From Pyrobaculum calidifontis JCM 11548 (GTDB lineage: Archaea; Thermoproteota; Thermoprotei; Thermoproteales; Thermoproteaceae), in NCBI RefSeq assembly GCF_000015805.1, contig NC_009073.1, positions 690,001 through 722,000 on the forward strand: a stretch of DNA of 32,000 bases, written 5' to 3'. The position numbers and the translations under genes are program-made. The first letter of the stretch is position 1; each line of letters begins with the position of its first letter. Below, in pieces: positions 19,392 to 32,000 of this stretch. The notes under the pieces were generated by a model, which worked only from the letters and a program-made list of their open reading frames with translations, ran no database searches and was not told where the DNA came from.

Positions 19392-20075
19392 GTGGGTGGG
19401 AGGGATGTTGACCCGTGCATCTTCCTCTCTGTCCATGTGGAGGACTGGGTGGGGGCCTTCGGCGAGGCGATTGTGAAAGTAGCAAAGTGCATGAACATGT
19501 CCCTAGAAGAGTTGGTGTCCTACGTCGCACATTCCCCTCCGCAGGCCACGACCGTCGCCTCCCTCTTGTGCAAGGCGGCCAACTTCGGCCGGGTCTGTCA
19601 ATACGCTGTAACGGGCAGGCCAAGCGGCTACGCCAGACTGCAAGTGCCCTACGTCGATGTGGAACAGGATCCGCGGCTGTCGCGGAAGCTCGTGACGCTG
19701 TCCCCATGCGCCTTGGTGGACGCAGACTTGGCCGCCTCTAGGCGGTCTCTGCCGCCGTCCCGCTACCCTCCCAACAAGTGGAGGCTAGAGGCGCCGTTGA
19801 TATACCGCCTCGGGGGGATAAAGGCTCTTAGGGTAAGGCCGTGGGAGACCCTCCGCCGACTCCTCTGGGAGAGGGAGCCTTGGCTTGTTGAGCTGTACCG
19901 CGAAAAGGGCGTCGTGTACATCGCGAACCAAAGGTGGTGTTTTGGGAGGTGCCGCCGCCAAGTCCATCTGGCCGAGTGGCTTGTTTGGCTAGACACGGGG
20001 AGACTGGTGGGCGTCCCTGTGGAAACACGGCGTGTGTCCACGGAATTTAATTCCGTGGTCACCCGCGGTGGGTGA
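19392..20075 (+). CDS. hypothetical protein, first gene of the cluster
   Basis: 227-aa ORF with a GTG start about 25 nt downstream of a TATA-like box, exactly at the AT-to-GC transition. No secure motif. Confidence 0.5.
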   Translation: MGGRDVDPCIFLSVHVEDWVGAFGEAIVKVAKCMNMSLEELVSYVAHSPPQATTVASLLCKAANFGRVCQYAVTGRPSGYARLQVPYVDVEQDPRLSRKLVTLSPCALVDADLAASRRSLPPSRYPPNKWRLEAPLIYRLGGIKALRVRPWETLRRLLWEREPWLVELYREKGVVYIANQRWCFGRCRRQVHLAEWLVWLDTGRLVGVPVETRRVSTEFNSVVTRGG

Positions 20076-20085
20076 AGGCGGGGCC

Positions 20086-20835
20086 ATGGACGTGGCGGCG
20101 CTGAAGCTTGTCAAGCTGGCCGCCCTCGGCTGGGAGCTCCGTCTGTACCACGTGCCCCGGCGCTTCGACGAAAACGTGGCGAGGGCCCTTGTCAGGCCTG
20201 CGGCGGAGGTCAAGGCGGCTTGCGCCTCTCGCCACCTCCTCCTCTTCTACCTAGTGGAAGTGGGGAAGTACGCCTTTGCCTACGCCCTTGCGGACCCAAC
20301 GCTATTCCCCGGAAAGCAGGCTGGCCGCCTCAAGGCCGTTGACCCAGCCATATGCCCCACTGCCACTGTCGTAAAGAGGGGGGTGGAGGGACTGGCCTCC
20401 CTCTACGAGGCCGCGGTGCGCTTCGAGGGAGCGCCGCCAGCGGCGCTGAGCGTGACGCCACTCCTCATGTTCCCCACACTGTGCCAAAGGCCAACGCCGG
20501 CCCTAGAGCCGTTGTGCAAAAGAGCACAGGCGATAAGGGAGGTCATAAAGCGGCCAATTGCCCTAGAGCCGCTGGGCGGCAAGCCGCAGAACGGCGCGGC
20601 CGACGCCAGCCGCCTTGAAACAAACGATGTACAGAAGAGCGGCGCTGGCAGACAGAGGGGTAGCTCTGGTGTCGCAGAATTGGCCAGCGGCTCTGTTACC
20701 GCAGAGTCAGCAGGCGCCGCCGCTGACGGCGGCTCAGCCTCTAACGCCGTGTCTGCTGAACTGTGCGGTTGCCGCGTTGACGCTAGATGTCTGGCTTGGC
20801 TTTGCCGCGCCGTGTGTGGCTGTGGGGGAGTTTGA
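20086..20835 (+). CDS. hypothetical protein with an Ala/Gly/Ser-rich C-terminus
   Basis: ATG 20086 lies 10 nt after the previous stop (track start 20032). The last 80 or so codons are low-complexity and overlap ORF 20615..21154, so the real 3' extent is uncertain. Confidence 0.45.
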   Translation: MDVAALKLVKLAALGWELRLYHVPRRFDENVARALVRPAAEVKAACASRHLLLFYLVEVGKYAFAYALADPTLFPGKQAGRLKAVDPAICPTATVVKRGVEGLASLYEAAVRFEGAPPAALSVTPLLMFPTLCQRPTPALEPLCKRAQAIREVIKRPIALEPLGGKPQNGAADASRLETNDVQKSGAGRQRGSSGVAELASGSVTAESAGAAADGGSASNAVSAELCGCRVDARCLAWLCRAVCGCGGV

Positions 20836-21154
20836 GGTTTTGGATAGGCTCTGCTCATCCGGCCCAATTGCGCTGGCGAGGCTCTGCGCGGCCTTCGCCC
20901 TCTTGAAGGCCCTTGAGGGGGCGAGGGGAGGCTACGTGGTGGTTAGGGCCTCCCTAGCCAGGGGGGTCGTGGAGGAGTGGCGCGGAGGCGCCTTTAGGAC
21001 CGCCGTAGAGGAGGCCCTACCCCACGTGGTGAAGAGGGTTAGGGCGAGGCTGGGCAGAGGGCCGGTCAGAGTGGTAGAGGCCAAGATTGCCCTAGCCCAA
21101 CTCGTCGAAGAGGAACTGCTGAGGGTAGCGAGAAGGATGGGCCTTTGGGTTTAA
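20615..21154 (+). CDS. hypothetical protein; the helical C-terminal 110 aa may be DNA-binding
   Basis: The convincing part starts near GTG 20816/20822 (VGEFEVLDRLCSSGPIALARLCAAFALLKALEG...). The start could lie anywhere in 20615-20822. Confidence 0.45.
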   Translation: MKQTMYRRAALADRGVALVSQNWPAALLPQSQQAPPLTAAQPLTPCLLNCAVAALTLDVWLGFAAPCVAVGEFEVLDRLCSSGPIALARLCAAFALLKALEGARGGYVVVRASLARGVVEEWRGGAFRTAVEEALPHVVKRVRARLGRGPVRVVEAKIALAQLVEEELLRVARRMGLWV

Positions 21155-21177
21155 CTTCTCTCACACACAAGGAGGGC

Positions 21178-21762
21178 GTGATAGTCCAAGTCTGGCATTC
21201 AAAAGGAGGCACCGGCAAAACAACTGTAGCCACTTCGCTGGCCATAGCGCTGTCAAAGTCTTGGGGCCGCACACTCTACGTGGAGGTGGGCCCGGTGCCC
21301 GTGGGCGTGAAAATACTGGGCGTTGAGGCGGACGGCAAGGTGCACGAGGGCCGCGGCGATGTCCTTGCTGTGTACTTGGAGGACGACTCTCAACTTCCTC
21401 AGCTGTTGGAGAAAGTGGGCAACGACGTCATGGCCGTTGTCGTTGACTACCCGCCTTGCATTAAGCCGGGGGAGGGCGGCCTGCTTGTGCCAGTTGCGGA
21501 CTGGCTCTCCGCCTCGACGCTTGAGAAGACGAAGGCGAAGGTCGCGGTGTTGAACAAAGATAGGGGCTTTGAGTTCAAGCTGACAACGGCGTCTGAGGTG
21601 GTCAAGCTACCCTTCTCCTACGCCGTGGAGAGGGCTGTGGCGGAGTACGTCCCGCCGGTGCTTGTGAGGCCCGCCTCGCCTGAGCACAAGCAGTTTGTCG
21701 AGGGGATACGCCGCCTCGCAGACAGAGTCATCGAGCTGGCCGGCCTCAAGAGGGGGCCATGA
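21178..21762 (+). CDS. ParA/MinD/VirC1-family P-loop ATPase
   Basis: The N-terminus (V)IVQVWHSKGGTGKTTVATSLA carries the deviant Walker A KGGxGKT, and VVVDYPP is Walker B-like. GTG 21178 is preceded by GGAGGG; the track start is TTG 21145. Confidence 0.8.
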   Translation: MIVQVWHSKGGTGKTTVATSLAIALSKSWGRTLYVEVGPVPVGVKILGVEADGKVHEGRGDVLAVYLEDDSQLPQLLEKVGNDVMAVVVDYPPCIKPGEGGLLVPVADWLSASTLEKTKAKVAVLNKDRGFEFKLTTASEVVKLPFSYAVERAVAEYVPPVLVRPASPEHKQFVEGIRRLADRVIELAGLKRGP

Positions 21763-22160
21763 GACGTCTCATCGACGCGTCGGCGGCCGTGCTCTCGGCC
21801 GTCCTATCGCCTCTGCTGAAGAGGCGGGGGAGGGAGCCGCTGATTTACCGCCTTCTTCGCGAAGAGGAGAGGAGGTTCAAGAGGGAGTGGCGTAGGCCGC
21901 TCCGCATTACGGAGAAGTTCAAGCCCGGCTGGCGCGACCAAGAGGCCTGGCGCCTGGCGAAAATGTGCAAAAACGCCGACTCCTGCTACCCGAGGATACG
22001 CTACCTGCTGTATAAACACGGCCGCGCCGTTGTGGAGTGGCTCAACTCGCTGTCCCACAGACGCGTCGACATAGACGCCGCTGTGAGGGTGGCTGTGAAG
22101 TACAGCCTCAAGTCGAGGCAGGTGGAAGACTGCGTAAAGCTTGGCCTCTGCGAGGTATGA
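21759..22160 (+). CDS. hypothetical basic protein
   Basis: 133 aa, with ATGA overlaps at both ends (ParA-like gene upstream, ATPase gene downstream). Confidence 0.5.
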   Translation: MRRLIDASAAVLSAVLSPLLKRRGREPLIYRLLREEERRFKREWRRPLRITEKFKPGWRDQEAWRLAKMCKNADSCYPRIRYLLYKHGRAVVEWLNSLSHRRVDIDAAVRVAVKYSLKSRQVEDCVKLGLCEV

Positions 22161-24094
22161 TCTCCTGGCTTCGCAACTACTACAAGTCTGTCCCCGCCAT
22201 CCTCTTCATAGTGCTACTCGCAGGCGTAGCCTTCCCACCGCTCTTCTTGGCGGTCGCCGTCGGCATACTACTCGTCGGCGAATACCTCTTCCTCAGACTG
22301 TCCAGAGAGCCTCTTGAGCCAGAGAAAGAGGAGCGCAAGCTGGGCGACGTCGCCGCCTCATACGACCCGCGTCGCCGTTGTTATCACTTCTTCTGGCGAG
22401 TAGAGCCCCTCTACACTGCCCTGGGAAGGGAGGCGCTGCCATTGGTACACCACATGTTGAACGCCGCGTCGCTTAGGGAAAACGAGGCACTCGCCTACAT
22501 CCACTCGTACTCCAAGTACCTACGGTTCACAGTCTGCAAAACCGACGAAGACACGGCGCTGAGGAGGGCACTGGAGGTGGAGGAGGGCCTCAAGACCCTC
22601 TTCGTCATGAAGAGGGTAGAGGAGCCGCCCCTCTGCTCTATCAAGAAGCCTCCCCGCGCCCCGCTTTACATCGCCGCCGTAGTCCTCGCCGTGGTTGCCC
22701 TAGCCTCCACAGCAAGCCCCTACATCGCCCCTCTGCCCCGCTGGGCCGCCCCGCTCTTCGCCTTGCCCACCGCCCTCGCCCTCTGGGCTAAGTGGAGGTG
22801 GTTCGAGAGGGCGTACTGCGTCTCTCCCCTGCCCCTAGAGGCCATGTCCTATAGGTTTGACGACCTTGACCAGAGGGCGGAGGCCCTCGACGGAAACGCT
22901 GTGCAGGAGGCGTCTTCCCTCAGCCGCGCGATGGGGCACTGGGCCGTCGTCTTTAAGAAGATGCCCGAGGCCGTCGCCTACCAAAAATACGGGAGGAAGC
23001 TGGTGTCGATTAGGGAGGACGAGAAGACTACGCGGGAGGTGCAGAAGTACTTGGCCATGCGGGAGAGGATTCAGAGGGGGGAGTCCTACATCTACGTCAA
23101 AGTGTTCGGCGAAGCCGACTACCACGGCACCACCACCCACTTGCGGAAAGACCCCATCTCCACCGCCGTGTTTTGGCAGCTAGACCTCTGGCACGACGCA
23201 CTTTCGGGCGGCCTAACCCGCTTCCCCATCTTCTACGGCGGCGCCCACCTGGAGAGCGGAAAGAGGTACGTGACGCTGGGCGAGGAGCACGTGACGAGGA
23301 GAGAGGTGACAATAGACGTGGACTCCCTCCCCGCGCCGCACTTGTTGATATTCGGCGGGTCTGGAATGGGGAAATCGAAGACAATGGCCTGGCTGTTGAG
23401 GCAGTTCCGGGACAAAGGAGTTAGAATCGCAATTATCGACCCCCACGGGGACTACCGCTGTACTGCTGAGGAGTTCGGCCTTGTGGACCTTCCCAAGAAC
23501 GCCCTGCCTCCCCTCGACGAGGCGTCCTACGCCAAAATCGCCGCTGAGTTCGGCATGTCCGCCGGCGAGGCGTTGGAGAAGCTTGGCTTCAAGGTGCTGA
23601 GAGAGGTGCCGGAGCAGTACAGAATATCGCTCTTGGGCCTAGACCCGCTACGCCAATCTTTCTTGGTGACGGCGTGGTTGTTGTACGAGTTGAACAGGGT
23701 GAAGGACGAGCACAGGGAGAGGCTTGAGCGGGTCGTTGTGGTGGATGAAGCATACCTCGCCAGGGGGCCCGTCCTTGAGATGCTGGAGTTTATGGCCCGG
23801 GGCGCTAGAAAGTTCGGAATGGCCGTCTTCCTCATCACCCAGATGCCCGGCGACATACCCGAGGCGCTTAGGAACATGGCCTCCCTAATGCTGGTATTCG
23901 GCGGCAATTGGACGTATTTGAACCACGTCCGCGAAGTCCTTCGCCTAACGGCAGACGACATGTCCTGGCTTATGACTGGGAGGGCGCCGAGGGAGACCGG
24001 CGGCATGGTAAGAGTGCTGGCGGTACTCGCGCCTGGCTCAATCAAGAAGAAGCTGGAGATACAGCTCCCGTCAGACGTCTTCGAATGCGCATGA
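22157..24094 (+). CDS. membrane-anchored FtsK/HerA/VirB4-superfamily ATPase (CedB/VirB4/TraG-like candidate)
   Basis: There are two hydrophobic hairpins (AILFIVLLAGVAFPPLFLAVAVGILLVG; LYIAAVVLAVVALAS...PLFALPTALALWA). These are followed by Walker A LLIFGGSGMGKSKT, IAIIDPHGDY and Walker B RVVVVDEAYL. ATG 22157 forms an ATGA overlap with the upstream stop. Confidence 0.8.
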   Translation: MISWLRNYYKSVPAILFIVLLAGVAFPPLFLAVAVGILLVGEYLFLRLSREPLEPEKEERKLGDVAASYDPRRRCYHFFWRVEPLYTALGREALPLVHHMLNAASLRENEALAYIHSYSKYLRFTVCKTDEDTALRRALEVEEGLKTLFVMKRVEEPPLCSIKKPPRAPLYIAAVVLAVVALASTASPYIAPLPRWAAPLFALPTALALWAKWRWFERAYCVSPLPLEAMSYRFDDLDQRAEALDGNAVQEASSLSRAMGHWAVVFKKMPEAVAYQKYGRKLVSIREDEKTTREVQKYLAMRERIQRGESYIYVKVFGEADYHGTTTHLRKDPISTAVFWQLDLWHDALSGGLTRFPIFYGGAHLESGKRYVTLGEEHVTRREVTIDVDSLPAPHLLIFGGSGMGKSKTMAWLLRQFRDKGVRIAIIDPHGDYRCTAEEFGLVDLPKNALPPLDEASYAKIAAEFGMSAGEALEKLGFKVLREVPEQYRISLLGLDPLRQSFLVTAWLLYELNRVKDEHRERLERVVVVDEAYLARGPVLEMLEFMARGARKFGMAVFLITQMPGDIPEALRNMASLMLVFGGNWTYLNHVREVLRLTADDMSWLMTGRAPRETGGMVRVLAVLAPGSIKKKLEIQLPSDVFECA

Positions 24095-24906
24095 ACGGCG
24101 AAGAGGTGAAGAGGGAGGCCGTGAGGAGCTACACGGGCCTACCCACCTACGACGTGATGAGAGAGGACTGGCGGCGTGAGGCGTACACGCCGCTTTTGTC
24201 CGCCGTCGGAAACTCGCCCGATAATCCACAAGGCGCGCCAGAGTTGTCACCACAATCGCCGCCTCTGTCGGTTTCTGTCAATCCGTCCAATAGCCCACAA
24301 AGCGTCTCAGCCACGCCAGAGCCGTCCCCACAGCCGCCACCCGCACCTCTGCCGCCATCGCCGCATCCCACGCCGCTTTCGCCCTCCATCGAGGAGCTTA
24401 GCGGCGTGGTGGTGAGGACTGGTGTCCTCTTCCGCCGCTACTACCTCAAGCTGAAAGACGCAGAGGCTAGGCCGGGCGATGTCCTCGTCGTAGTGGGCCG
24501 GGACTGGTACGTCCTTAGGCCTGCGCCAAAGGCCGATGTGTGGGTCGGAGACGGGGTGATAAGGCTGAGGGGGGAGGCAGTGCGCTTCTCCCTCAACGCC
24601 ATACCGCAAAAGCTCTTGCTAGACTACGCGGCGCAGGTGGCGTGGGGCAAGACGGCCCTCGTTGCGGTGAGAGTGCCCCGCGCCAGGCTGAAGTGGCCCA
24701 GGCGCTACGACCCAGAAGTATCACCGTTTGCCAGAGACCTCGCAGAGATAGCACAGTCGCCGGCCCTCGTTGCCCTTGTGCGCCTTTCGGACAAGGGAGC
24801 CAAGAGGACTGCCCTTTCTTGGCTCTCCAAGGGCGCTTATGCCTACTGCCATGCCGTGAATCAACTGTTGCAGTCAATCGGCGTGGGGGTTAGGCTGATA
24901 TGCTAG
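24091..24906 (+). CDS. hypothetical protein with a Pro/Ser-rich linker
   Basis: ATG 24091 overlaps the ATPase stop (ATGA). It contains PELSPQSPPLSVSVNPSNSPQSVSATPEPSPQPPPAPLPPSPHPTPLSPS between two globular parts. Confidence 0.6.
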   Translation: MNGEEVKREAVRSYTGLPTYDVMREDWRREAYTPLLSAVGNSPDNPQGAPELSPQSPPLSVSVNPSNSPQSVSATPEPSPQPPPAPLPPSPHPTPLSPSIEELSGVVVRTGVLFRRYYLKLKDAEARPGDVLVVVGRDWYVLRPAPKADVWVGDGVIRLRGEAVRFSLNAIPQKLLLDYAAQVAWGKTALVAVRVPRARLKWPRRYDPEVSPFARDLAEIAQSPALVALVRLSDKGAKRTALSWLSKGAYAYCHAVNQLLQSIGVGVRLIC

Positions 24907-25655
24907 AGCTCGTGGTGGGCGGCCTAATCGAGCGTAATGCGGATTACGTCTACACCTTCTGCCCCACCGAGCGCTACACGGGCATCGGAGTGTCTCTCGA
25001 GCCAGAGGCGTCCATGCTCATATACGCCCTCACGGCGAGGTACAACCAGCCCATCCACATCACTCACACTAGGCAGTTGAAGGACTGTACGTCCCCCATC
25101 TGTCTTTTGTTTCAATACGCCGACCTTGAAGACCTCAAGGTGGAGAGGGGAGAGGCGACGTACGTGGCGCCGGTGGTAGACCCAGCCTCCCTCGTCGTGG
25201 CCATTGCCCTTGCCTACGCCCTTGAGCGCAGGCTGAGGGGCGGCTGGCTTGTGGAGGTGTACAGCGACGCCTGGCCACAGCACGTCGACGTTTTGCTATA
25301 CCTCAAGGCCTTGAGGGGCGTGGTTAGGATTTACACCACCACCCTCTCCGAGCGGGCAATGGCCGCAGACCGCGTCGTGGTAAACCACGCCTTCAAGGCA
25401 GAGGCACTGGGCCTCAAGGAGTATAGGGGCTACCCGTGGTGCACCCCGCCCACCGCCCCGCCGCCAGGCGTAGAGGAAGAGGTAGAGGAGCTGGTGCGCA
25501 CGGCTGTGGAAAGCGGCGGCTTTATCTCTCTAAAATATGCATTAGAGCAGTTCGGCCAGAGGGCCGTGGCGAGGGCCATAGCCCTCGGCCTTTTGCGTTA
25601 TGATCCAACGACGATGTCCCTCAAAGTCACAGAGGCCGCCCTAGGCCGTGGTTGA
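24900..25655 (+). CDS. hypothetical protein with a possible C-terminal wHTH
   Basis: 251 aa, with a 7-nt overlap with the upstream gene. The C-terminal LVRTAVESGGFISLKYALEQFGQRAVARAIALGLLRY is HTH-like. Confidence 0.55.
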   Translation: MLELVVGGLIERNADYVYTFCPTERYTGIGVSLEPEASMLIYALTARYNQPIHITHTRQLKDCTSPICLLFQYADLEDLKVERGEATYVAPVVDPASLVVAIALAYALERRLRGGWLVEVYSDAWPQHVDVLLYLKALRGVVRIYTTTLSERAMAADRVVVNHAFKAEALGLKEYRGYPWCTPPTAPPPGVEEEVEELVRTAVESGGFISLKYALEQFGQRAVARAIALGLLRYDPTTMSLKVTEAALGRG

Positions 25656-25824: not shown

Positions 25825-25836
25825 CACGAATCGCAT

Positions 25837-26103
25837 TTGCCCTTGGCTAGACGCTACTTAGAACTGTGCAGGAAGTGGATGGTGGAGCGCATCTTGTCGG
25901 AGTTCAAACCCGCCGAGGCCCTCGCCGCAGAGCTGGCATGCCGAGACGGTTGTGCCGTCCTCAGCAGAGACGTGGGTGTGGTTAAGGCGGTGGGCAACTG
26001 CGGCGTGCCAGTGTTTTTGTTTCTGCGGGGCCGCCTTTGGCTTGTGGAGGCGGCCACGGCGCACTCCGCCGCGTCCAGCGAAAGCTTTAAGGCAATTGCG
26101 TGA
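25837..26103 (+). CDS. hypothetical protein (possible PIN-like C-terminal half)
   Basis: 88 aa from a TTG start. AEALAAELACRDGCAVLSRDVGVVKAVGNCGVPVF resembles the C-terminal strand-helix-strand of PIN-type nucleases (weak similarity). Confidence 0.4.
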   Translation: MPLARRYLELCRKWMVERILSEFKPAEALAAELACRDGCAVLSRDVGVVKAVGNCGVPVFLFLRGRLWLVEAATAHSAASSESFKAIA

Positions 26104-26366
26104 TGCGCGACGCGTCTGTCGTCTTCATCTTCGCGGGCTGTCCTCCAGAGGAGCTTCTCGAGCTAAGGCGCTTTGGCTATCTGCTGGTCTCAACGGCGGA
26201 TTGCCAAGGCGTAGAAAAGGCGGTCGACGTCAAGGCCTACGTCCGGGGCAAATTCGCAGTGGTGGTAGGAGACGCCGAGCTGGCCAAGAGGCTGGACGTG
26301 GGGTGCATGGCGTGGGAAGAGGCGTTGGACTTCTTAAGGTGTGCTCGACGTAGAGGAGAGGGTTAG
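26100..26366 (+). CDS. hypothetical protein
   Basis: 88 aa, with a GTGATG overlap with the upstream stop. No recognised motif. Confidence 0.45.
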   Translation: MMRDASVVFIFAGCPPEELLELRRFGYLLVSTADCQGVEKAVDVKAYVRGKFAVVVGDAELAKRLDVGCMAWEEALDFLRCARRRGEG

Positions 26367-26567
26367 GGCCGATGCCGCGTAGTAGGGCCCCATGCGCTGG
26401 CCGCCTTGGCCAGCAACCGCCTCTCCAGCCTTGCCGCGTATGGGCCTTAGCCGCCAGCCAAGACAGCTTAACGCGACTTGCCGCCACACGGCAATGCCAT
26501 CGGCAGTGGACTATAATGAGTTCGACAGACGGCAAGCGAAAAAAAATAGGGGCAGGTTCTCTACGCC

Positions 26568-28067
26568 ATGTATAAACTGGAGTGGGATATGAGGGCTAGG
26601 TGGCTCTTCGCGGCGGCTTTGGCTGTGGCTGGGCTTTGGGCTGGGTGGACTGTCTACACTTGGCCTCACGTGGTGCAGTTCGTGCCCTCGTTCGCCGTGG
26701 CCTACAGCAGAGGGCTGGGCCAAGAGGTGGTGGTACAAGTGGTGAACCAGTCGGGCCACCCGGTGGACTTCTGCGCCTCGCTGATAGGCTGGTTTCCCAA
26801 CGGCACCCTCGCAAAGCTAGACGACGTGTGCGGCAGAGGAGAGGCAAAGGCAAACGTGGAGCGGTTTAGGAAGTACGCAGAGGCTTGGAAAAACTCGCCG
26901 GGGGAGGTGGGGGTAATAGTACTGCTGACATACGTCAACGGCACAACCCCAGACGGGAACTACACACTGGCACGCACGGCGAAGAGCTTCACAATACAGC
27001 CGGGCCGAGTGCTGAGGGGAGAGAGCGTGAGAGCCACGATAAAAGTCAAGGGAAAGCCCCCCACCCAGCCGCCCAAGGGCAGACAAGCCGCCGCTCTGGC
27101 ACTGCAGAGTCCGGGGCAAATGGCCCTACAGAGCTGGCCACCGGGCATGATGGCCCAGTGTATAACGGGGAGTGTAGTAGTCTGCTACTACTGGATATTG
27201 GACACAGTCTACGTGAATCAGACCAACACAGAGATACCGCTGGTGGCGGCTAGAGTGTCCACTGGGTGGGAGGCCTCACTGATAAATGATGTATACGTCA
27301 ACTATGTCCTAGCCGCCTCTAGTAGCAACTACGTCTACTTTTCAGGCGGAGCGGCGATCACGTATGTCGTCAACGGCGTAAGCATGCCCCAAGGCTACTC
27401 CGCTGACATATACACACTTGCTATCAGTGACAGCTCCTTCAAGTTGAGTAAAGGACTAACGATGATTCCCTATCAGCAAGGCCCCGGTATCGTCGTTGTT
27501 GGCTTTAAGGGCGACTACGCCGTTGCGCGTTATAGTGAGGTTCAATGTATCGTATCTATTGGGGCTTCCTGTGCTCCAACCAACTACTACGCCATCTTGT
27601 ACATGGTAAGGCCTAACGTTACTAATCCTACGTCCTACGGCGAGGTGTTGTCTCTGAGCAGCTATGTGGGCGACATGTTCAACTTGGTATCTAAGTACTG
27701 GAACAACCACACAGAATACGGCGGATCTGACGTAAGCGTAAATTCCATTACCACGGTCTCTGAGAATAACGGCATAAATATTTTGGCATTGGGAATACCG
27801 CTTATAAAAGAGCCACAAGATACAATAGTAGTGAATACCGCGTTAAATTTAGCCGTTGGCGTAGGCGCCAGTACACAAATTACCGCATTAGGAACAGCTT
27901 CCGCTGCGCTAAACACAAACAATCCGAAGTACTTCATATACGCCGTGTACTACCTGCCCCCCGTGAAGTTTGAATACCAAGGCGGCTATTACCCGCTCCC
28001 CTCGCTGTTTGTAGACTTCAGAGTGGGTGTTTCAACGCTTGACAGAGACGCAGAGGGCACGACGTAG
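26568..28067 (+). CDS. large secreted/membrane-anchored beta-rich protein with many N-glycosylation sequons (candidate surface or pilus-associated protein)
   Basis: N-terminal anchor MRARWLFAAALAVAGLWAGWTVY, with multiple N-x-S/T sequons (NGT, NYT, NQT, NVT, NHT...) and Ser/Thr/Asn/Val-rich composition. An A8-containing TATA-like box (GAAAAAAAATAG, about 26537-26549) lies about 25 nt upstream of ATG 26568. Confidence 0.7.
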   Translation: MYKLEWDMRARWLFAAALAVAGLWAGWTVYTWPHVVQFVPSFAVAYSRGLGQEVVVQVVNQSGHPVDFCASLIGWFPNGTLAKLDDVCGRGEAKANVERFRKYAEAWKNSPGEVGVIVLLTYVNGTTPDGNYTLARTAKSFTIQPGRVLRGESVRATIKVKGKPPTQPPKGRQAAALALQSPGQMALQSWPPGMMAQCITGSVVVCYYWILDTVYVNQTNTEIPLVAARVSTGWEASLINDVYVNYVLAASSSNYVYFSGGAAITYVVNGVSMPQGYSADIYTLAISDSSFKLSKGLTMIPYQQGPGIVVVGFKGDYAVARYSEVQCIVSIGASCAPTNYYAILYMVRPNVTNPTSYGEVLSLSSYVGDMFNLVSKYWNNHTEYGGSDVSVNSITTVSENNGINILALGIPLIKEPQDTIVVNTALNLAVGVGASTQITALGTASAALNTNNPKYFIYAVYYLPPVKFEYQGGYYPLPSLFVDFRVGVSTLDRDAEGTT

Positions 28068-28097: not shown

Positions 28098-28103
28098 TTT
28101 TTT
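28098..28103 (+). terminator. oligo-T terminator candidate
   Basis: CCCCCTCCTTTTTTCG lies about 30 nt after the stop of 26568..28067. Confidence 0.45.
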
Positions 28104-28225: not shown

Positions 28226-29164
28226 GTGGGCAAGAGGAGGGAGGGGGACCCCCTGGAGGGCCTGGAGGGAGTGGGGCCAAAGACGCTGGAGCGGCTTAGG
28301 GAGCTGGGGGTGACGTCTGTGGAGCATCTGGCGGAGTTCACTGTGGAGGAGCTTGTGGAGGCTGGCGTGGAGTACGACCGCGCCGTCAAGATCCTCCAGC
28401 AGGCAATACAGCGCGTCGGCACGACGCGTCCCATGACCGCGAGAGAGCTTAGGACGCAACAGCGCAGGGCCTTCAAAACCGGCGTCTCGGAGTTCGACGA
28501 GAAGACTCCCTGGCGCGGCATACGCGAGGCCTTTATCTACGAATTCGCGGGGGAGTTCGGCGCGGGGAAGTCCATGCTGGCTCACCAGCTCTCTGTTGCG
28601 GCCCTCGCCCAAGGCTTCACCACGCGTGTGGTGTACATCGACACGGAGGGGACATTCAACGACGGCCTCGTCGAGGCTGTAGCGAAGAGGTTCAACTTCG
28701 ACGCCGACAAGGCGTTAGAGGCAATCGTCGTCTATCAGCCCGCCAACGTTGTCCAGCTTGAACAGATTGTGAAGTTCGACCTGCCAAGACACATCGCCGA
28801 GGGTTGCCGCCTCGCCGTAATCGACACCATTACTGCGCTGTACCGCGCCGAATTCGTTGGGAGGGAGATGCTGGCCGCCAGACAGCAACGCATCCACTAC
28901 CTCGTGGACTGGCTGAGGAGGCATGCCAGGACTTTTGGGCTAACGTCGGTGCTCACTAACCAGGTCATGGACGTGCCAGAGGCCTTTTCCGTGGGCAAGA
29001 GGCCCGCCGGCGGCAACGTGTTGGCACACGCGGTAAACGCCAGGTTCATGATGTCCCGGCCCAACAAGGCAAAGGCGGAGGGCTACATGTGGCCGCTGGA
29101 CGTGCCGGGGATGCCCCCCGACGTGAGGATTGACTACCGCATCACAGATGCGGGGCTGGAGTAG
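28226..29164 (+). CDS. RadA/Rad51-family recombinase paralogue (full length, with N-terminal HhH domain)
   Basis: The HhH region reads LEGLEGVGPKTLERLRELGVTSVEHLAEFTVEELVEAGV. Walker A is FAGEFGAGKSM (canonical RadA has GEFGSGKTQ) and Walker B is LAVIDTITALYRAEFVGREMLAARQQ. The C-terminal VLTNQVMDVPE...PAGGNVLAHAVNARF is colinear with RadA. Confidence 0.9.
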   Translation: MGKRREGDPLEGLEGVGPKTLERLRELGVTSVEHLAEFTVEELVEAGVEYDRAVKILQQAIQRVGTTRPMTARELRTQQRRAFKTGVSEFDEKTPWRGIREAFIYEFAGEFGAGKSMLAHQLSVAALAQGFTTRVVYIDTEGTFNDGLVEAVAKRFNFDADKALEAIVVYQPANVVQLEQIVKFDLPRHIAEGCRLAVIDTITALYRAEFVGREMLAARQQRIHYLVDWLRRHARTFGLTSVLTNQVMDVPEAFSVGKRPAGGNVLAHAVNARFMMSRPNKAKAEGYMWPLDVPGMPPDVRIDYRITDAGLE

Positions 29165-29325: not shown

Positions 29326-30216
29326 ATGTCCATGAGACCTGAGTACTTCTTCCACCTTGTCGTTGCGGCTGAGGGTAATGCCCTTGTCACCGGCCTCCCC
29401 GGCTCTGGGAAGACGACGCTTGTGAAGAGGGCTCTCTCAAACGTTCCCAGGGATTTTGCCGTGGTTGTGCTGGATACGGCCGGCGAGTTTCGCAGGTGTG
29501 ACTACGCCGGCCCGTTCTCGGTCAACCCGCTTGAGCTACCGCCTCTCCAGCTGGTGGAGGTCTTGGAAGAGTCTCTGCGCGCCACATATGGGGAGTACGC
29601 CTACGTGTGGACGCCGGCCATGTCCGAGGTGTTGCTAATGGCCGCCCAGAGGGCGCGCACTCTGGCGGAGGTATACGAGAGGGTGTTAGAGGCCGCGCCG
29701 CCCCACATGGTGGACACCGCCCTCGCAGTTAGGAGGAGGCTCCTCCACTTCGCGAGGCAATTTGAAGCCACAGACGTCCCAGTGGAGGCTGGCAAGTCCA
29801 CTTGCGTGGACATATCGGCGTTGGACAGAGTGGCCCGTGTCGCATACGTCCTAACGCTGTTGGAGCTACACCGCAAGGCGCACAACGTCATCTACGTCGT
29901 CGACGAGGCGCACCGATTCTTCACCACGTACTACCCACTCCTCGTGGACCACTTGAGGACGGGGAGGCACAGCGGCCGGTTCTTCGTCCTGCTAAGCCAC
30001 TCGCCGAGGGAGTTCGCTAGGCACATGGGCTACGTCAAGGTGTGGGTGAGATTCCCCGAATTCGACATGGACCAACGGCAAGGCGTCCACTGGCACCCCT
30101 CAGTGGCGTATGTGACGGTGTACGCCGCGTCCAAGAGGTCCGCGGCGGCTCTTGCCGCATTGGGCGTGCCTCTCAGAGGCGCCAAGGCGGAGTTCGCCAT
30201 GGAGGTAACGCCGTGA
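29326..30216 (+). CDS. soluble HerA/VirB4-like (DUF87-type) P-loop ATPase
   Basis: Walker A NALVTGLPGSGKTTL, then VVVLDTAGEF and Walker B VIYVVDEAHRFF. ATG 29326 is chosen (track start TTG 29314). Confidence 0.75.
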   Translation: MSMRPEYFFHLVVAAEGNALVTGLPGSGKTTLVKRALSNVPRDFAVVVLDTAGEFRRCDYAGPFSVNPLELPPLQLVEVLEESLRATYGEYAYVWTPAMSEVLLMAAQRARTLAEVYERVLEAAPPHMVDTALAVRRRLLHFARQFEATDVPVEAGKSTCVDISALDRVARVAYVLTLLELHRKAHNVIYVVDEAHRFFTTYYPLLVDHLRTGRHSGRFFVLLSHSPREFARHMGYVKVWVRFPEFDMDQRQGVHWHPSVAYVTVYAASKRSAAALAALGVPLRGAKAEFAMEVTP

Positions 30217-30797
30217 GTCGGGCCAATAGGCGCGCCGACCCCCTCCGCATAGCCCTTGAGAGGCTTAGGCGGGACTTCCCCGGGAAAAGCCGCTCTTGGA
30301 TCAAAAGGGCTTTGTTGAGACTGCCGTATGTGCGTGAAGTAAGAGATGGCCTCTACGTCGTGGAGGGCGTGAGGGAGCTGGGGGATTGGAAGCCCCTCTA
30401 CCAAGTGTGGTGGAGCGGGCGGGAGGGGCGTTGGGAGTGCACGTGTTATTATTCGACGTGGGGGTGGAGGAGGCGGAGGGGCATATGCACACACGTGGCC
30501 TCTGTCCTCCTCTATCGCCGCTTCAAGAGGGCGGTGGAGGCAGTTGAGAACCGCCCCGTCTACTTCGCATCAGCTGAGGTGGAGTGTGTAAACGTGAAGG
30601 TGAGGGGGTCGCTGGAGCACCGCATCACCCCCCTCGAGAAGGCTGGGTCGCTCCTCGACTTCGCCAGGGGGAGGCGGTATGTAGTTTACATAATCGCCGA
30701 GGGGCCGTCTGCCGAGCTGTTGTGCGACGGGTCGCCGGTGGAGCTGGCGTGGGAGAGGCTCAGCCTAAAAGTGGCCAAGGCCCTCCTAGAGGGCTGA
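30213..30797 (+). CDS. SWIM zinc-finger protein
   Basis: WECTCYYSTWGWRRRRGICTHVASVLLY fits the SWIM pattern CxC-x(n)-CxH. GTG 30213 forms a GTGA overlap with the ATPase stop; the longer track ORF from 30042 would overlap the ATPase gene. Confidence 0.7.
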   Translation: MSRANRRADPLRIALERLRRDFPGKSRSWIKRALLRLPYVREVRDGLYVVEGVRELGDWKPLYQVWWSGREGRWECTCYYSTWGWRRRRGICTHVASVLLYRRFKRAVEAVENRPVYFASAEVECVNVKVRGSLEHRITPLEKAGSLLDFARGRRYVVYIIAEGPSAELLCDGSPVELAWERLSLKVAKALLEG

Positions 30798-30820
30798 GGC
30801 GCCCCTAGAAGACGGTCGGC

Positions 30821-30999
30821 GCCTTTTCCCGCAGTCCTCACATAGGCTTTCTCCAGACGCCTTTCTCCCTCGACGTCTTTTCCCACGGCCCTTGCGCCGT
30901 CTCTCTTCGACGTATTCTCCCGCAGTTTTTACGCCGTGTTTACGTAGCGTGTGTCCACTATTGTTCTTCTGAGGCTTTCAGGGGCGTTGGGTTTTTCCC
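30821..30999 (+). promoter_or_regulatory. repeated pyrimidine-rich boxes upstream of the pilin-like gene
   Basis: CGACGTCTTTTCCCACGG (30871-30888) and CGACGTATTCTCCCGCAG (30908-30925) match at 14/18 positions. Related TTTTCCCGCAG (30824-30834), TTTCTCCC (30862-30869) and TTTTTCCCC (30992-31000) are also present, the last at the TATA position for ATG 31020. Confidence 0.45.
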
Positions 31000-31019
31000 C
31001 TTCGGCGTAGGCCACTCCC

Positions 31020-31481
31020 ATGCCCAAACCCGCGTTTGCGGCAGTGGCGCTGGCCGCGCTTGTGCTGGCACAGCTCGCAGTGGCGCAGGCCACAACTACG
31101 CCTGCCAGCGGCGGCGGTGGCGGCGGCGTTACCAGCGTGGAGTTTTGGCAGAACATCGCCTCTGGCGTGGGGAAGTGGCTTAGGGCAATATTCGCCATCG
31201 CCTTCTGGTCTTCTCTCATCTTGTTGACCTTCTACGCCATTATGACCCAAGTGGCGCCCTCCAAGGTCTTCCGGCTGGGCGCATTGGTGGACCTCATCGA
31301 GAGCGTGAAGACTGTGTTGTTAGGCATCTTCGTCTTCACAGCCTCCGTCACCGGCATTATCGCAGGCGTGGCGGCCATAGCCAACGCCTTCGGCGCCTCC
31401 TTCGGAGTATCGCCAATCGACGTAGTAAACGCCCTCATATTCCAGCCAATAGTAGACATGGTAAAAGTGGTAACTGGGTAG
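31020..31481 (+). CDS. VirB2/TrbC/CedA1-like conjugative-type pilin candidate
   Basis: Signal peptide MPKPAFAAVALAALVLAQLAVAQA, then TTTPASGGGGGG. Two long hydrophobic helices (WLRAIFAIAFWSSLILLTFYAIM and TVLLGIFVFTASVTGIIAGVAAIANAF) are joined by a charged loop. This is the helix-loop-helix hairpin architecture of T4SS pilins. The call rests on architecture only. Confidence 0.55.
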   Translation: MPKPAFAAVALAALVLAQLAVAQATTTPASGGGGGGVTSVEFWQNIASGVGKWLRAIFAIAFWSSLILLTFYAIMTQVAPSKVFRLGALVDLIESVKTVLLGIFVFTASVTGIIAGVAAIANAFGASFGVSPIDVVNALIFQPIVDMVKVVTG

Positions 31482-31485
31482 GGCA

Positions 31486-32000
31486 ATGACGCTTACCTCA
31501 AACACGCCCCTTTTTTCCACCTCTCCTTCCCTCTCCTCGCCTACTCCCTCGCCCTCCCTAGCCCTCTTCCTCCCCTCCACAGGCATACCAGTGCTGGACG
31601 TGGGGCTGGCTGTGCTGGGGGCCATGGCCACATACGGCGCAATTCTCTGGCTCATGGGGGTTAGGCGCCTTAGGGAGGAGGCTGTGGACGCCTTTCTACA
31701 CGCCATATTCGGCGCGGCGCTGTTCGCAGTGGCCCTCGTCATTGGGAACTTGGCGGTGCAGGCCGCTTCGGCCTACTACGACTATGCCAATGTAAGCAAA
31801 TTGTGCTTCAACCTCGCCGGCCAGCCGAGCTTGCTCGACGACTATAGGCGCTGGATTAACGCCACTATGAGGTGCGCCGCGGGCAACTTCTCAAGGTACG
31901 CAGACGCCGCCGCGGCCACACTGTCTGACATGTTCACCGGCGTGGCTGTGCTCGGCTTGCTCCCCGTGGTTCAGCAGTTCGCCTTCTCCTTCATGCAGAT
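31486..32000 (+). CDS. polytopic membrane protein, 5' part only (VirB6/TrbL/CedA-like candidate); runs off the window
   Basis: ATG 31486 lies 5 nt after the pilin-like stop, and the frame is open to nt 32000 (171+ codons; absent from the track because no stop is reached). The sequence begins with a Ser/Pro/Thr-rich N-terminus, then reads GIPVLDVGLAVLGAMATYGAILWLMG, FLHAIFGAALFAVALVIGNLAV and FTGVAVLGLLPVV. Confidence 0.5.
   Translation, partial: MTLTSNTPLFSTSPSLSSPTPSPSLALFLPSTGIPVLDVGLAVLGAMATYGAILWLMGVRRLREEAVDAFLHAIFGAALFAVALVIGNLAVQAASAYYDYANVSKLCFNLAGQPSLLDDYRRWINATMRCAAGNFSRYADAAAATLSDMFTGVAVLGLLPVVQQFAFSFMQ

What the first reader, a model, noticed from the sequence alone, without database searches (positions are those of the whole stretch)
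19392..32000. Plus-strand-only cluster that looks like an archaeal conjugation / DNA-import (T4SS-related, Ced/Ted-type) machine
Seen in sequence: about 12.6 kb of same-strand, tightly coupled genes start at an AT-to-GC transition just after a 0.5-kb non-coding spacer and run off the window. Its recognisable parts are these:
- a small ParA/VirC1-like ATPase (21178-21762);
- a 645-aa ATPase with four predicted TM helices and HerA/VirB4-type Walker motifs (22157-24094);
- a 499-aa secreted sequon-rich protein (26568-28067);
- a divergent full-length RadA (28226-29164);
- a second HerA-like ATPase (29326-30216), translationally coupled to a SWIM zinc-finger protein (30213-30797);
- a signal-peptide-bearing two-helix hairpin protein with VirB2/TrbC pilin architecture (31020-31481);
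- directly after it, a polytopic membrane protein (31486 onward) in the position and shape of VirB6/TrbL/CedA.
About half the ORFs have no motif I can recognise. Established knowledge (from memory, to be checked): Sulfolobales use the Ced system (CedA, CedA1/A2, CedB) to import DNA. Conjugation-like pili built from VirB2-like subunits have been reported for Aeropyrum pernix and Pyrobaculum calidifontis, the latter under the name Ted. Crenarchaeal conjugative plasmids carry VirB4/TraG-like ATPases but no recognisable relaxase. Inference: this cluster is such a machine. The added recombinase, SWIM/ATPase pair and ParA-like module are not part of the minimal described sets, so their roles may be new. 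I saw no relaxase, integrase or replication gene in the visible part.
Basis: partly seen in the sequence, partly recalled or inferred. Interest (0 to 1): 0.9.

Follow-up and report, generated by a model that had tools for sequence, protein, structure and literature searches.

The report
Published Ted DNA-transfer pilus locus

Summary
The window comes from Pyrobaculum calidifontis JCM 11548. Eight of the cluster's proteins looked up by exact sequence, plus TedA read from a contig of the same species, equal its GenBank entries ABO08180-ABO08192. The 153-aa hairpin protein (31020-31481) is TedC (WP_011849449, Pcal_0765), the pilin whose filament was solved by cryo-EM (PDB 8DFT). The next gene is TedA (Pcal_0766).

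Beltran et al. 2023 (PMC9905601) defined the Ted system on this locus. They already listed the ParA/VirC1-like ATPase, the recombinase (called "Rad50") and the HerA-like ATPase as conserved neighbours. A 2025 paper named a TedD. The finding is therefore already known.

What I add:
- About 12 genes keep their order across up to 85 related loci.
- The "Rad50" is a RadA/Rad51 paralogue clade that lacks the FxxA phenylalanine.
- An invariant SWIM protein is coupled to the small ATPase.
- A lineage-restricted protein has four invariant cysteines and a winged helix.
- A conserved small gene carries a nonsense codon only in P. calidifontis.
- A roughly 5,000-aa membrane and helical protein is coupled to tedA just beyond the window. 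It appears in none of the papers searched.

The parts
18864..19391 (.). AT-rich non-coding spacer upstream of the cluster; probable promoter region
   Evidence: 528 nt at 39.6% GC against 60.6% for the cluster. It contains TATA-like TTTAAA/TTTTTAGAG strings. No Rfam or tRNA hit.
19392..20075 (+). g01, 227 aa, unknown function; first gene of the cluster
   Evidence: No Pfam or PHROG hit. 87% identical in L011. Weak relatives (27-36%) sit at the left end of type-2 loci.
20086..20835 (+). g02, about 249 aa, unknown; accessory
   Evidence: Found only in close Pyrobaculum relatives: L011 78%, L015 45%. No family hit.
20816..21154 (+). g03, about 112 aa, unknown; accessory
   Evidence: Called as 112 aa in L003 and 104 aa in L011. 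No significant family hit.
21178..21762 (+). ParA/MinD-family (VirC1-like) ATPase, 194 aa, ABO08180
   Evidence: Pfam CbiA E 9.9e-6, 26.0 bits against a 25.4 cut-off. Deviant Walker A KGGTGKT. 72% identical in Thermoproteus sp.. Published as a conserved VirC1/ParA-like Ted neighbour.
21759..22160 (+). g05, 133 aa, very basic (net +16); overlaps ParA and TedB by 4 nt each; candidate DNA-binding partner of ParA (inference)
   Evidence: Composition, overlaps, 54% identity in Thermoproteus sp.. No family hit.
22157..24094 (+). Membrane-anchored FtsK/HerA/VirB4-class ATPase, 645 aa, ABO08182; most probably the published TedB
   Evidence: Pfam DUF87 1.5e-13, TrwB_AAD_bind 9.7e-7, HerA_C, AAA_10, P-loop_TraG. 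NCBIfam CedD 2.2e-10, and VirB4 and HerA models, all far below cut-off. Two TM hairpins. Walker A and B present.
24091..24906 (+). g07, 271 aa, with a Pro/Ser-rich linker and a conserved C-terminal half; unknown
   Evidence: C-terminal half 53-55% identical in L009 and L007, about 30% in type-2 loci, found in 78 of 85 loci. No family hit.
24900..25655 (+). g08, 251 aa, ABO08184: alpha/beta N-domain with four invariant Cys plus a C-terminal winged helix; lineage-restricted core gene
   Evidence: Invariant C21, C63, C68, C181. AF2 pLDDT 82.4, pTM 0.73. Only the winged helix matches known folds; nothing at E<=0.001 in PDB or BFVD. 19 hits at E<=0.001 among 1.84 billion representatives. 71% identical in Thermoproteus sp..
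25648..26103 (+). g09/g10: one conserved gene of about 138 aa, split here by an in-frame TGA at 25822-25824
   Evidence: The TGA replaces a conserved Trp (DAWHE). The ORF is continuous in 47 of 47 other loci and split in the window and L003. No Pfam hit.
26100..26575 (+). g11 (26100-26366) and g12 (26372-26575): small ORFs, accessory or doubtful
   Evidence: No homologue in L007, L009 or L011. No family hit.
26568..28067 (+). g13, 499 aa, ABO08187: species-specific, probably secreted glycoprotein
   Evidence: N-terminal hydrophobic stretch and 7 sequons. Its 90% cluster has one member. Absent from every other locus. GC 53.9%.
28226..29164 (+). Full-length but divergent RadA/Rad51 paralogue, 312 aa, ABO08188; the paper's 'Rad50'
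   Evidence: Pfam Rad51 8.4e-38 plus HHH_5. NCBIfam RadA 188.9 bits against a 259 cut-off and 165.5 against 361. Aligns end to end with 1PZN and 2BKE; the FxxA Phe is replaced by Pro. The clade recurs in type-2 loci.
29326..30216 (+). Small soluble P-loop ATPase, 296 aa, ABO08189; the 'HerA-like' gene and possibly 'TedD'
   Evidence: Pfam AAA_16 7.8e-9 with weak T2SSE, TrwB and DUF87. NCBIfam VirB11, TadA and VirB4 hits at the P-loop only; CedD E 0.051. PADLOC mad8 2e-11. 74% identical in Thermoproteus sp. and 56-60% in type-2 loci.
30213..30797 (+). SWIM zinc-finger protein, 194 aa, ABO08190; overlaps the ATPase gene by 4 nt
   Evidence: C76-x-C78-x13-C92-x-H94 is invariant. Pfam SWIM 15.8 bits against a 19.6 cut-off. 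Always follows the small ATPase.
30816..30937 (+). Three imperfect 31-nt direct repeats in the spacer upstream of tedC; possible regulatory sites
   Evidence: Conserved in L011, absent from the short L009 spacer.
31020..31481 (+). TedC, VirB2-like conjugative-type pilin, 153 aa, ABO08191 / WP_011849449 / Pcal_0765
   Evidence: PDB 8DFT E 7.5e-64, 111 of 112 identical. Accession identity. Signal peptide LAVA|QA.
31486..32000 (+). TedA (VirB6/CedA-like polytopic protein), first 171 of 310 aa, ABO08192 / WP_011849450 / Pcal_0766; cut by the window end
   Evidence: Full length read from L001 2506-3438. About 7 hydrophobic segments. Published HHpred link to CedA and VirB6. Here only a weak T4SS_pilin hit at residues 39-89.

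Best explanation
This is the chromosomal Ted (Thermoproteales exchange of DNA) locus of Pyrobaculum calidifontis JCM 11548. It is a T4SS-derived pilus machine for moving DNA between cells.

Shown:
- TedC (31020-31481) is the subunit of a VirB2-like, lipid-containing pilus solved by cryo-EM from this organism.
- It has a Sec-type signal peptide.

Published by profile comparison: the next gene, TedA, is a VirB6/CedA-like polytopic membrane protein.

Shown here:
- A 645-aa ATPase of the FtsK/HerA/VirB4 class, anchored by two TM hairpins, lies upstream.
- About 12 genes keep their order across related loci.

Inferred mechanism:
- The membrane ATPase, docked on TedA, drives pilus assembly and DNA translocation.
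- The small ATPase with its SWIM partner, the ParA-like ATPase with the basic 133-aa protein, and the Cys4/winged-helix protein recruit or process the DNA substrate.
- The dedicated RadA paralogue handles the single strand for recombination.
- The fast-evolving exposed parts (TedC, TedA, the giant downstream protein, the species-specific 499-aa glycoprotein) mediate contact and partner specificity.

Direction of transfer is assumed by analogy with Ced (import). It has not been shown for Ted.
For: Identity with the published locus:
- TedC matches PDB 8DFT at 111 of 112 residues, E 7.5e-64.
- Exact sequences equal ABO08180-ABO08192 and WP_011849449/50 of P. calidifontis JCM 11548.
- The paper assigns Pcal_0765 = WP_011849449 = TedC and Pcal_0766 = TedA, places a VirB4-like TedB upstream, and shows ParA/VirC1-like, recombinase and HerA-like neighbours.
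- TedD is named in the same locus.

Domains.

Operon-like coupling.

Conserved order (ParA, g05, TedB, g07, g08, g09/10, small ATPase, SWIM, TedC, TedA, giant):
- in Thermoproteus sp. and other Pyrobaculum;
- in a divergent second locus type.

Divergence pattern, window against Thermoproteus sp.:
- cytoplasmic parts: 69-74% identical;
- TedC 47%, TedA 37%, giant protein 32%.

Host-like composition: 60.6% GC against 58.1% for the flank.

No sign of a mobile element or close mobile relatives:
- no integrase, relaxase or replication domain in the cluster proteins scanned;
- no tRNA gene in the window;
- no close homologue on plasmids or viral contigs.
Against: - No genetic or biochemical evidence shows that Ted moves DNA in any direction; the authors say Pyrobaculum is not genetically tractable.
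- My HMMER-level tests could not reproduce the TedA-VirB6/CedA link.
- The large ATPase scores with HerA as well as with VirB4, CedB and CedD, in every case only around the P-loop and far below family cut-offs.
- Its AF2 model was too poor (pLDDT 46.8) for a fold test.
- A conserved gene (g09/g10) is broken by a stop codon in this very strain, so at least one conserved part is dispensable for pilus formation, or is read through.
- The right end of the locus lies beyond the data I could reach.
Confidence: 0.9

Rival explanations
1. The cluster belongs to an integrated, self-transmissible conjugative element (ICE or integrated plasmid) that exports its own DNA. It would not be a domesticated host system for chromosomal DNA import.
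For: - The flanking genes differ between species: NIF3 and a restriction-modification island here, a radical-SAM/DUF92 neighbourhood in Thermoproteus sp., and a 1,464-aa AAA protein in L011.
- The locus abuts a 36% GC foreign island.
- A second, divergent locus type exists in the same genus. In a P. aerophilum assembly both its ATPases are fragmented, which looks like a decaying element.
- Type-2 loci are very abundant in metagenomes.
- Accessory genes (g02, g03, g11-g13) vary between close relatives.
Against: - No integrase, relaxase, replication gene, tRNA or att-like repeat was found in 32 kb of window or in 10-kb flanks of related loci.
- GC content equals that of the host.
- No relatives on 72,556 plasmids or in IMG/VR.
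- The paper reports TedC in all five Thermoproteales genera and argues for domestication.
- The region to the right of the giant gene was not seen.
Confidence: 0.07
2. The pilus and its machine serve adhesion, aggregation or protein delivery rather than DNA transfer. The recombination genes would be neighbours by coincidence.
For: - No DNA-transfer assay exists for Ted.
- The locus encodes a large glycosylated ectodomain protein and a species-specific secreted glycoprotein.
- P. calidifontis is prone to aggregation.
Against: - A RadA paralogue clade co-occurs with the locus in both locus types.
- Also present are a ParA/VirC1-like ATPase, a winged-helix protein and a SWIM protein.
- The homologous Ced system imports DNA, and its ATPases CedB and CedD are required.
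- The paper attributes aggregation in this organism to separate TasA-like bundling pili.
Confidence: 0.05
3. The ATPase, RadA and SWIM genes form a HerA-type DNA-repair or anti-phage defence module that merely sits next to a pilin operon.
For: - Both ATPases hit the PADLOC mad8 model, and the large ATPase also hits the HerA defence models.
- The best PDB sequence matches of the large ATPase are HerA-type helicases.
- A restriction-modification island lies 2 kb upstream.
Against: - All these hits are limited to the P-loop region and fall below any family threshold.
- No NurA, Sir2 or other effector partner is present.
- The ATPases keep strict synteny with tedC, tedA and the giant gene in every locus long enough to show it.
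Confidence: 0.02

Closest known systems
Ted system of Thermoproteales (Beltran et al. 2023, Nat Commun 14:666, PMC9905601); TedD added by PMC11823120 (2025)
   Same: It is the same locus in the same organism. TedC equals Pcal_0765/WP_011849449/PDB 8DFT and TedA equals Pcal_0766. The upstream VirB4-like ATPase and the ParA/VirC1-like, recombinase and HerA-like neighbours match the published description.
   Different: Nothing differs in kind. Points not in the papers' text as searched:
- the recombinase is RadA/Rad51-family, not Rad50;
- the SWIM partner;
- the Cys4/winged-helix protein;
- the g09/g10 gene and its nonsense codon;
- the giant gene downstream of tedA;
- a second locus type.
I could not determine which of the two ATPases the 2025 paper calls TedD.
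Ced system of Sulfolobales/Desulfurococcales (CedA, CedA1, CedA2, CedB, plus CedD and CedE; PMC11868833, PMC11823120)
   Same: The functional logic is the same: a VirB2-like two-helix pilin, a VirB6-like polytopic protein and membrane-bound FtsK/HerA-class ATPases. Ced is shown to import DNA.
   Different: - There is no usable sequence similarity. NCBIfam CedB and CedD models reach at most 42 bits against cut-offs of 600-700.
- TedC has a cleaved signal peptide, whereas CedA1 is unprocessed.
- Ted loci add a ParA-like ATPase, a RadA paralogue, a SWIM protein and a giant protein.
- No UV-induction or transfer data exist for Ted.
Bacterial conjugative type IV secretion systems (VirB/Trw/F)
   Same: VirB2-like pilin with stoichiometric lipid, VirB6-like protein, VirB4-class ATPase and a VirC1-like ParA ATPase.
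   Different: - No relaxase, no VirB7/9/10 outer complex, and no clear VirD4 or VirB11 (only weak P-loop hits for the small ATPase).
- It is chromosomal and presumably moves host DNA.
- The pilus lumen is narrower.
Eukaryotic Shu2/SWS1 SWIM proteins paired with Rad51 paralogues (PMC5727457)
   Same: A CxCxnCxH SWIM protein is encoded beside and coupled to a RecA-superfamily P-loop protein, in a locus that holds a Rad51/RadA paralogue.
   Different: This is a resemblance only. The partner ATPase looks FtsK/HerA/VirB-like rather than Rad51-like.

Membership tests
Ted system (Beltran 2023) | TedC: the VirB2/CedA1-like pilin identified from the cryo-EM map of P. calidifontis pili (WP_011849449, PDB 8DFT) | tested here: met
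   111 of 112 residues identical to 8DFT, E 7.5e-64. The exact sequence equals ABO08191/WP_011849449. The one difference is Gly129 in the genome against Ala in the PDB entry.
Ted system (Beltran 2023) | Cleavable Sec signal peptide on TedC with site AVA|QA | tested here: met
   The sequence reads ...AQLAVAQATTT... at residues 17-27. The paper states the same site. Cleavage itself was not tested here.
Ted system (Beltran 2023) | TedA: a 7-TM CedA/VirB6-like protein encoded directly downstream of tedC | tested here: met
   The gene starts 4 nt after tedC. The full-length 310 aa equals ABO08192/WP_011849450. About 7 hydrophobic segments.
Ted system (Beltran 2023) | Homology of TedA to CedA/VirB6 (published HHpred probability 98.6) | tested here: inconclusive
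   HMMER-level searches found no VirB6 or TrbL hit in Pfam or PDB. The only signal is a sub-threshold T4SS_pilin hit at residues 39-89 (E 0.012-0.035). HHpred was not available.
Ted system (Beltran 2023) | TedB: a VirB4/CedB-like ATPase upstream of tedC | tested here: met
   645-aa ATPase with Walker A and B. Pfam DUF87, TrwB_AAD_bind, AAA_10 and P-loop_TraG. NCBIfam VirB4-type, CedD and CedB hits below cut-off. Whether it is closer to VirB4 than to HerA is unresolved; the AF2 model was unusable.
Ted system (Beltran 2023) | Mediates intercellular DNA exchange | not testable with these tools
   No experiment exists for Ted. The inference rests on Ced genetics.
Ced system (CedB / CedD equivalogs) | Score above the NCBIfam equivalog cut-offs (CedB 700 bits, CedD 600 bits) | tested here: not met
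   The best scores are CedD 39.8-41.7 bits and CedB 16-23 bits for the large ATPase family, and CedD 12.2 bits for the small ATPase. This agrees with the paper's statement that Ced and Ted components share no recognisable sequence similarity.
Bacterial conjugative T4SS / ICE | Relaxase, and for an ICE also an integrase, att repeats or a tRNA target | tested here: not met
   No such domain in any ORF of the cluster. No tRNA, no Rfam hit and no flanking repeats. The right boundary beyond the giant gene was not seen.
RadA (archaeal recombinase, NCBIfam PRK04301 / TIGR02236) | Score above the equivalog cut-off; HhH N-domain plus ATPase core; FxxA polymerisation motif | tested here: not met
   188.9 bits against a 259 cut-off and 165.5 against 361. 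The architecture is full length (HHH_5 plus Rad51) and aligns end to end with 1PZN and 2BKE. The motif Phe is Pro here and is absent in every Ted-linked copy whose sequence covers that position. It is a RadA-family paralogue, not the canonical RadA. Whether a canonical radA exists elsewhere in this genome was not tested.
Rad50 (the label used in the 2023 and 2025 papers) | SMC-like ABC ATPase with coiled coil and zinc hook | tested here: not met
   The only recombinase-type gene in the cluster scores Rad51 8.4e-38 and no Rad50 or SMC family. The papers' description ('coats 3' tails, strand invasion') fits RadA.
SWIM zinc finger (PF04434) | CxCxnCxH motif; Pfam gathering score of 19.6 bits | tested here: inconclusive
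   The motif CTCx13CTH is present and invariant in three homologues. The HMM score is 15.8 bits, below the cut-off. UniProt names the protein 'Zinc finger, SWIM domain protein'.
ParA/MinD family (VirC1-like) | Deviant Walker A KGGxGK[ST]; Pfam CbiA above its gathering score | tested here: met
   KGGTGKT at residue 9. CbiA scores 26.0 bits against a 25.4 cut-off. Specific kinship to VirC1 was not tested.

The most novel reading that the evidence does not exclude
The published three- or four-gene Ted set may under-describe the machine. The real unit would be a conserved module of about 12 genes. Its undescribed members would be working parts of the apparatus:
- a roughly 5,000-aa protein translationally coupled to tedA, with a polytopic N-terminus, a 700-aa glycosylated ectodomain and more than 2,000 aa of intracellular helical region. 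It could be the envelope-spanning or cytoplasmic scaffold, or a mating-pair stabiliser, standing in for the missing VirB8/9/10 or F-TraG-type functions;
- a Cys4 plus winged-helix protein;
- an ATPase-SWIM pair;
- a dedicated RadA paralogue clade lacking the FxxA motif.
Probability: 0.45. Interest if true: 0.6.

Novelty: already known. Interest (0 to 1): 0.22.

Why it matters
The locus matters as the archaeal, chromosomally domesticated relative of bacterial conjugation machinery, but that point was made in 2023 on this very sequence.

What remains open is how such a system works without a relaxase, an outer complex or a clear coupling protein. The conserved but undescribed genes catalogued here are concrete candidates for those missing functions:
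- the giant TedA-coupled protein;
- the Cys4/winged-helix protein;
- the SWIM partner of the small ATPase;
- the g09/g10 gene;
- the FxxA-less RadA clade.

They give specific targets for structure prediction of complexes, pilus and membrane proteomics, and cryo-ET.

The analysis also corrects a label that is spreading in the literature: the recombinase is a RadA paralogue, not "Rad50".

Tried and rejected
- **AF2 model of the 645-aa ATPase.** Built from 8 sequences, it reached pLDDT 46.8 and was not used for fold search.
- **Genome-contig scan with the TedB profile.** It returned only one true relative, and the P. calidifontis genome itself did not appear.
- **Reaching the end of the giant gene.** The word-indexed protein search with its first 1,000 aa gave one partial hit. 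The metagenome scan with residues 2501-3022 gave none. The C-terminus and the right boundary of the locus stay unseen.
- **TedA against the giant N-terminus.** BLASTP found no similarity.
- **Internal repeats in the giant helical region.** None found.
- **PIN-domain guess for g09/g10.** I read a D...E...D pattern by eye, but Pfam does not support it, so I dropped it.
- **Cas4/Csa1 hits of g08.** They are weak (E 0.0015-0.07), cover the linker region and were judged spurious.
- **Shared promoter or operator motif.** None was found upstream of the four transcription units.
- **PHROGs.** No informative hits apart from a weak terminase P-loop match.
- **Plasmid and IMG/VR searches.** No informative hits.
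- **Supplementary tables.** The papers' tables that would say which ATPase is TedD are not held.

Full report
**1. What is there**

The + strand from 19392 to the window end carries an unbroken series of ORFs.
- Most junctions are 4-8-nt overlaps or gaps of at most 23 nt.
- Three larger gaps (158, 161 and 222 nt) precede the RadA-like gene, the small ATPase gene and the pilin gene. This suggests four transcription units.
- The cluster follows a 528-nt spacer of 39.6% GC. It is itself 60.6% GC, like the chromosome further left at 58.1%.
- Between the two lie a NIF3 gene (18000-18863) and a 36% GC island (about 13.5-18 kb). The island carries an Eco57I/MmeI-type N6-methylase.
- No tRNA or Rfam family is present in the window.

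**2. Identity**

The 153-aa hairpin protein at 31020-31481 matches the pilin chain of PDB 8DFT at 111 of 112 residues (E 7.5e-64).

Exact-sequence look-up places eight cluster proteins, and TedA read from L001, in Pyrobaculum calidifontis JCM 11548 as ABO08180-ABO08192. The adjacent NIF3 protein (ABO08176, 280 aa) falls in the same 90% cluster as the window's longer 287-aa ORF. The pilin is WP_011849449 and the next protein is WP_011849450.

Beltran et al. 2023 (PMC9905601) report the following:
- They identified WP_011849449/Pcal_0765 from the cryo-EM map of P. calidifontis pili and named it TedC.
- They named the downstream 7-TM protein Pcal_0766 TedA (HHpred 98.6 to CedA, distant to VirB6).
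- They named an upstream VirB4-like ATPase TedB.
[quoted passage not shown] The window therefore contains the type locus of a published system.

**3. Gene-by-gene check**

- **ParA-like (21178-21762).** Deviant Walker A KGGTGKT. Pfam CbiA is just above its cut-off.
- **Large ATPase (22157-24094).**
  - It has Walker A and B motifs and two TM hairpins.
  - Pfam gives DUF87, TrwB_AAD_bind, HerA_C, AAA_10 and P-loop_TraG.
  - NCBIfam gives CedD, HerA, VirB4-type and, in homologues, CedB hits. All are confined to the P-loop region and far below cut-offs.
  - A family profile finds HerA-type helicases first in the PDB, with VirB4 only at E about 1.
  - HMMER therefore cannot place it within the FtsK-HerA superfamily. 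The AF2 model was too poor to help.
- **Recombinase (28226-29164).**
  - It is RadA/Rad51-family: Pfam Rad51 8.4e-38 plus HHH_5.
  - It aligns end to end with P. furiosus and S. solfataricus RadA.
  - It falls below both NCBIfam RadA cut-offs.
  - No Rad50 or SMC domain exists in the cluster, so the papers' 'Rad50' is a mislabel.
- **Small ATPase (29326-30216).** It has Walker motifs and weak VirB11, TadA, VirB4 and mad8 hits.
- **SWIM protein (30213-30797).** It overlaps the small ATPase gene by 4 nt. It has an invariant CxCx13CxH motif, though Pfam scores it just under the cut-off.
- **499-aa protein (26568-28067).** It has an N-terminal hydrophobic stretch, 7 sequons, lower GC (53.9%) and no relative anywhere.

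**4. Comparative genomics**

Loci came from encoding-contig look-ups and one metagenome scan.

The order ParA, g05, TedB, g07, g08, g09/10, small ATPase, SWIM, TedC, TedA, giant gene is shared with a Thermoproteus sp. MAG. Identities to the window are, in that order, 72, 54, 51, 53, 71, 60/61, 74, 69, 47, 37 and 32%.

A second, divergent locus type has g08 at 43-47% identity and TedB at about 30%.
- It is abundant in metagenome contigs (152 matching stretches).
- It occurs in a P. aerophilum assembly and in a Thermofilaceae MAG.
- Its order is g01-like, two ParA-like genes, TedB, g07, g08, small ATPase, SWIM, g09/10, RadA paralogue, TedC, TedA, giant gene.

Among 85 loci anchored on g08, contig length permitting, g07 is present in 78, the small ATPase in 79 and SWIM in 61.

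Cytoplasmic components are far better conserved than exposed ones. That is what one expects if the exposed parts determine partner specificity (inference).

**5. New details**

- **(a) g08 (24900-25655).**
  - It is a lineage-restricted family, with 19 hits at E<=0.001 among 1.84 billion representatives.
  - It has four invariant cysteines and a confident AF2 model (pLDDT 82.4).
  - Only its C-terminal winged helix matches known folds.
- **(b) g09 and g10.** They are a single ORF of about 138 aa in 47 of 47 other loci. In P. calidifontis a conserved Trp codon is TGA (25822-25824), both in the window and in an independent metagenome contig.
- **(c) Ted-linked RadA paralogues.**
  - They form their own conserved group across both locus types, with the signature KTGVxEFDEKTPWxG...GEFGAGKSM.
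  - All lack the phenylalanine of the FxxA polymerisation motif.
  - This suggests a specialised or mediator role rather than canonical filament formation (inference).
- **(d) The giant gene just beyond the window.**
  - It overlaps tedA by 4 nt.
  - Its length is 5,058 aa here, 4,857 and 5,085 aa in relatives, and 355 + 2,594 aa in the P. aerophilum-type locus.
  - The 3,022 residues I could read show 5-6 TM segments, then a 700-aa Trp-rich ectodomain carrying all 22 sequons, then another TM segment.
  - More than 2,000 aa of A/E/L/R-rich, repeat-free helical sequence follow.
  - It has no Pfam or PDB relative.
  - Neither the 2023 paper's text nor any paper in the library mentions it.
- **(e) Repeats upstream of tedC.** Three 31-nt direct repeats lie there and are conserved in the closest relative.

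**6. Mechanism**

- **Shown.** TedC builds a VirB2-like lipid-containing pilus (published structure). The gene set and its order are conserved.
- **Published inference.** TedA is the VirB6-like membrane platform and TedB the VirB4-like motor. By analogy with Ced, where CedA, CedB and CedD are required for import, the system exchanges chromosomal DNA for recombinational repair.
- **My inference.**
  - The small ATPase with SWIM, ParA with the basic g05 protein, and the winged-helix g08 protein handle substrate DNA.
  - The RadA paralogue receives the strand.
  - The giant protein and the variable secreted protein act at the cell-cell interface or as a scaffold.
- **Unknown.** The direction of transfer and the nature of the substrate.

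**7. Rivals**

- **An integrated conjugative element.**
  - For it: non-syntenic flanks, the adjacent foreign island and the existence of decaying type-2 copies.
  - Against it: no integrase, relaxase, att site or tRNA; host-like GC; and no plasmid or viral relatives.
  - The right boundary was not seen.
- **A pure adhesion or secretion role, or a HerA-type repair/defence module.** Both are less likely because the recombination and DNA-binding genes keep strict linkage with tedC, tedA and the giant gene.

**8. Verdict**

Novelty: already known. Interest is low for the finding as stated. Moderate residual value lies in the undescribed conserved components, above all the giant TedA-coupled protein.

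Noticed in passing
just right of the window (starts about window-equivalent 32415); L001 3435-12501, L009 17667-21905, L011 19101-21932: A giant gene overlaps the tedA stop by 4 nt. It is 5,058 aa in P. calidifontis-type contigs, 4,857 aa in Thermoproteus sp., 5,085 aa in another Pyrobaculum, and split into 355 + 2,594 aa in a P. aerophilum assembly. The part I read has 5-6 TM segments, a 700-aa ectodomain holding all 22 sequons, another TM segment, then more than 2,000 aa of A/E/L/R-rich helical sequence. It has no Pfam or PDB relative and no paper searched mentions it.
   Followed up: partly
window 25648-26103 (TGA at 25822-25824): A conserved Ted-locus gene of about 138 aa is split in P. 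calidifontis by an in-frame TGA that replaces a conserved Trp (DAWHE). The ORF is continuous in 47 of 47 other loci. The stop is also present in an independent metagenome contig (L003). It may be a pseudogene, a read-through site or a split gene.
   Followed up: yes
window 28226-29164; L042, L049, L060, L062, L082 and others: The Ted-linked recombinase belongs to a distinct RadA paralogue clade shared by both locus types (46-53% identity). Its signature is KTGVxEFDEKTPWxG, and the Phe of the FxxA polymerisation motif is replaced. The papers label this gene 'Rad50', but it is RadA/Rad51-family.
   Followed up: yes
L012, L013, L028-L093 (metagenome and MAG loci): A second, divergent type of Ted locus (g08 43-47% and TedB about 30% identical) is abundant in metagenome contigs (152 matching stretches). 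It has two ParA-like genes, and the small ATPase and SWIM genes come directly after g08. In the P. aerophilum assembly both ATPase genes are fragmented.
   Followed up: partly
window 24900-25655: This 251-aa core protein has four invariant Cys (C21, C63, C68, C181), an alpha/beta N-domain with no significant fold match, and a C-terminal winged helix. The family has only 19 hits at E<=0.001 among 1.84 billion representative proteins.
   Followed up: yes
window about 13500-18000: A low-GC island (36% against about 58-61%) carries an Eco57I/MmeI-like N6-adenine methylase (15063-16577, minus strand) and unannotated ORFs (14209-14862 minus; 16653-17798 plus). It looks like a horizontally acquired restriction-modification island. 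No flanking att-like repeats were found.
   Followed up: partly
window 30816-30937: Three imperfect 31-nt direct repeats (TCGxCGxxTTxTCCCxCxG...) lie in the 222-nt spacer upstream of tedC. They are conserved in the closest relative (L011) and absent from the short Thermoproteus spacer. They may be regulator binding sites.
   Followed up: partly
window 26568-28067: The 499-aa, probably secreted, sequon-bearing protein is an ORFan: its 90% cluster has one member and it is absent from all related loci. Its GC is 53.9% against about 61% for its neighbours. In L011 a different 334-aa gene occupies the same position, which makes this a variable slot in the locus.
   Followed up: partly
window 31020-31481, residue 129: The genome encodes Gly129 in TedC, as do all 22 contigs read that carry the exact protein. 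PDB 8DFT has Ala at that position. The cause may be a model-building choice or a strain difference.
   Followed up: no
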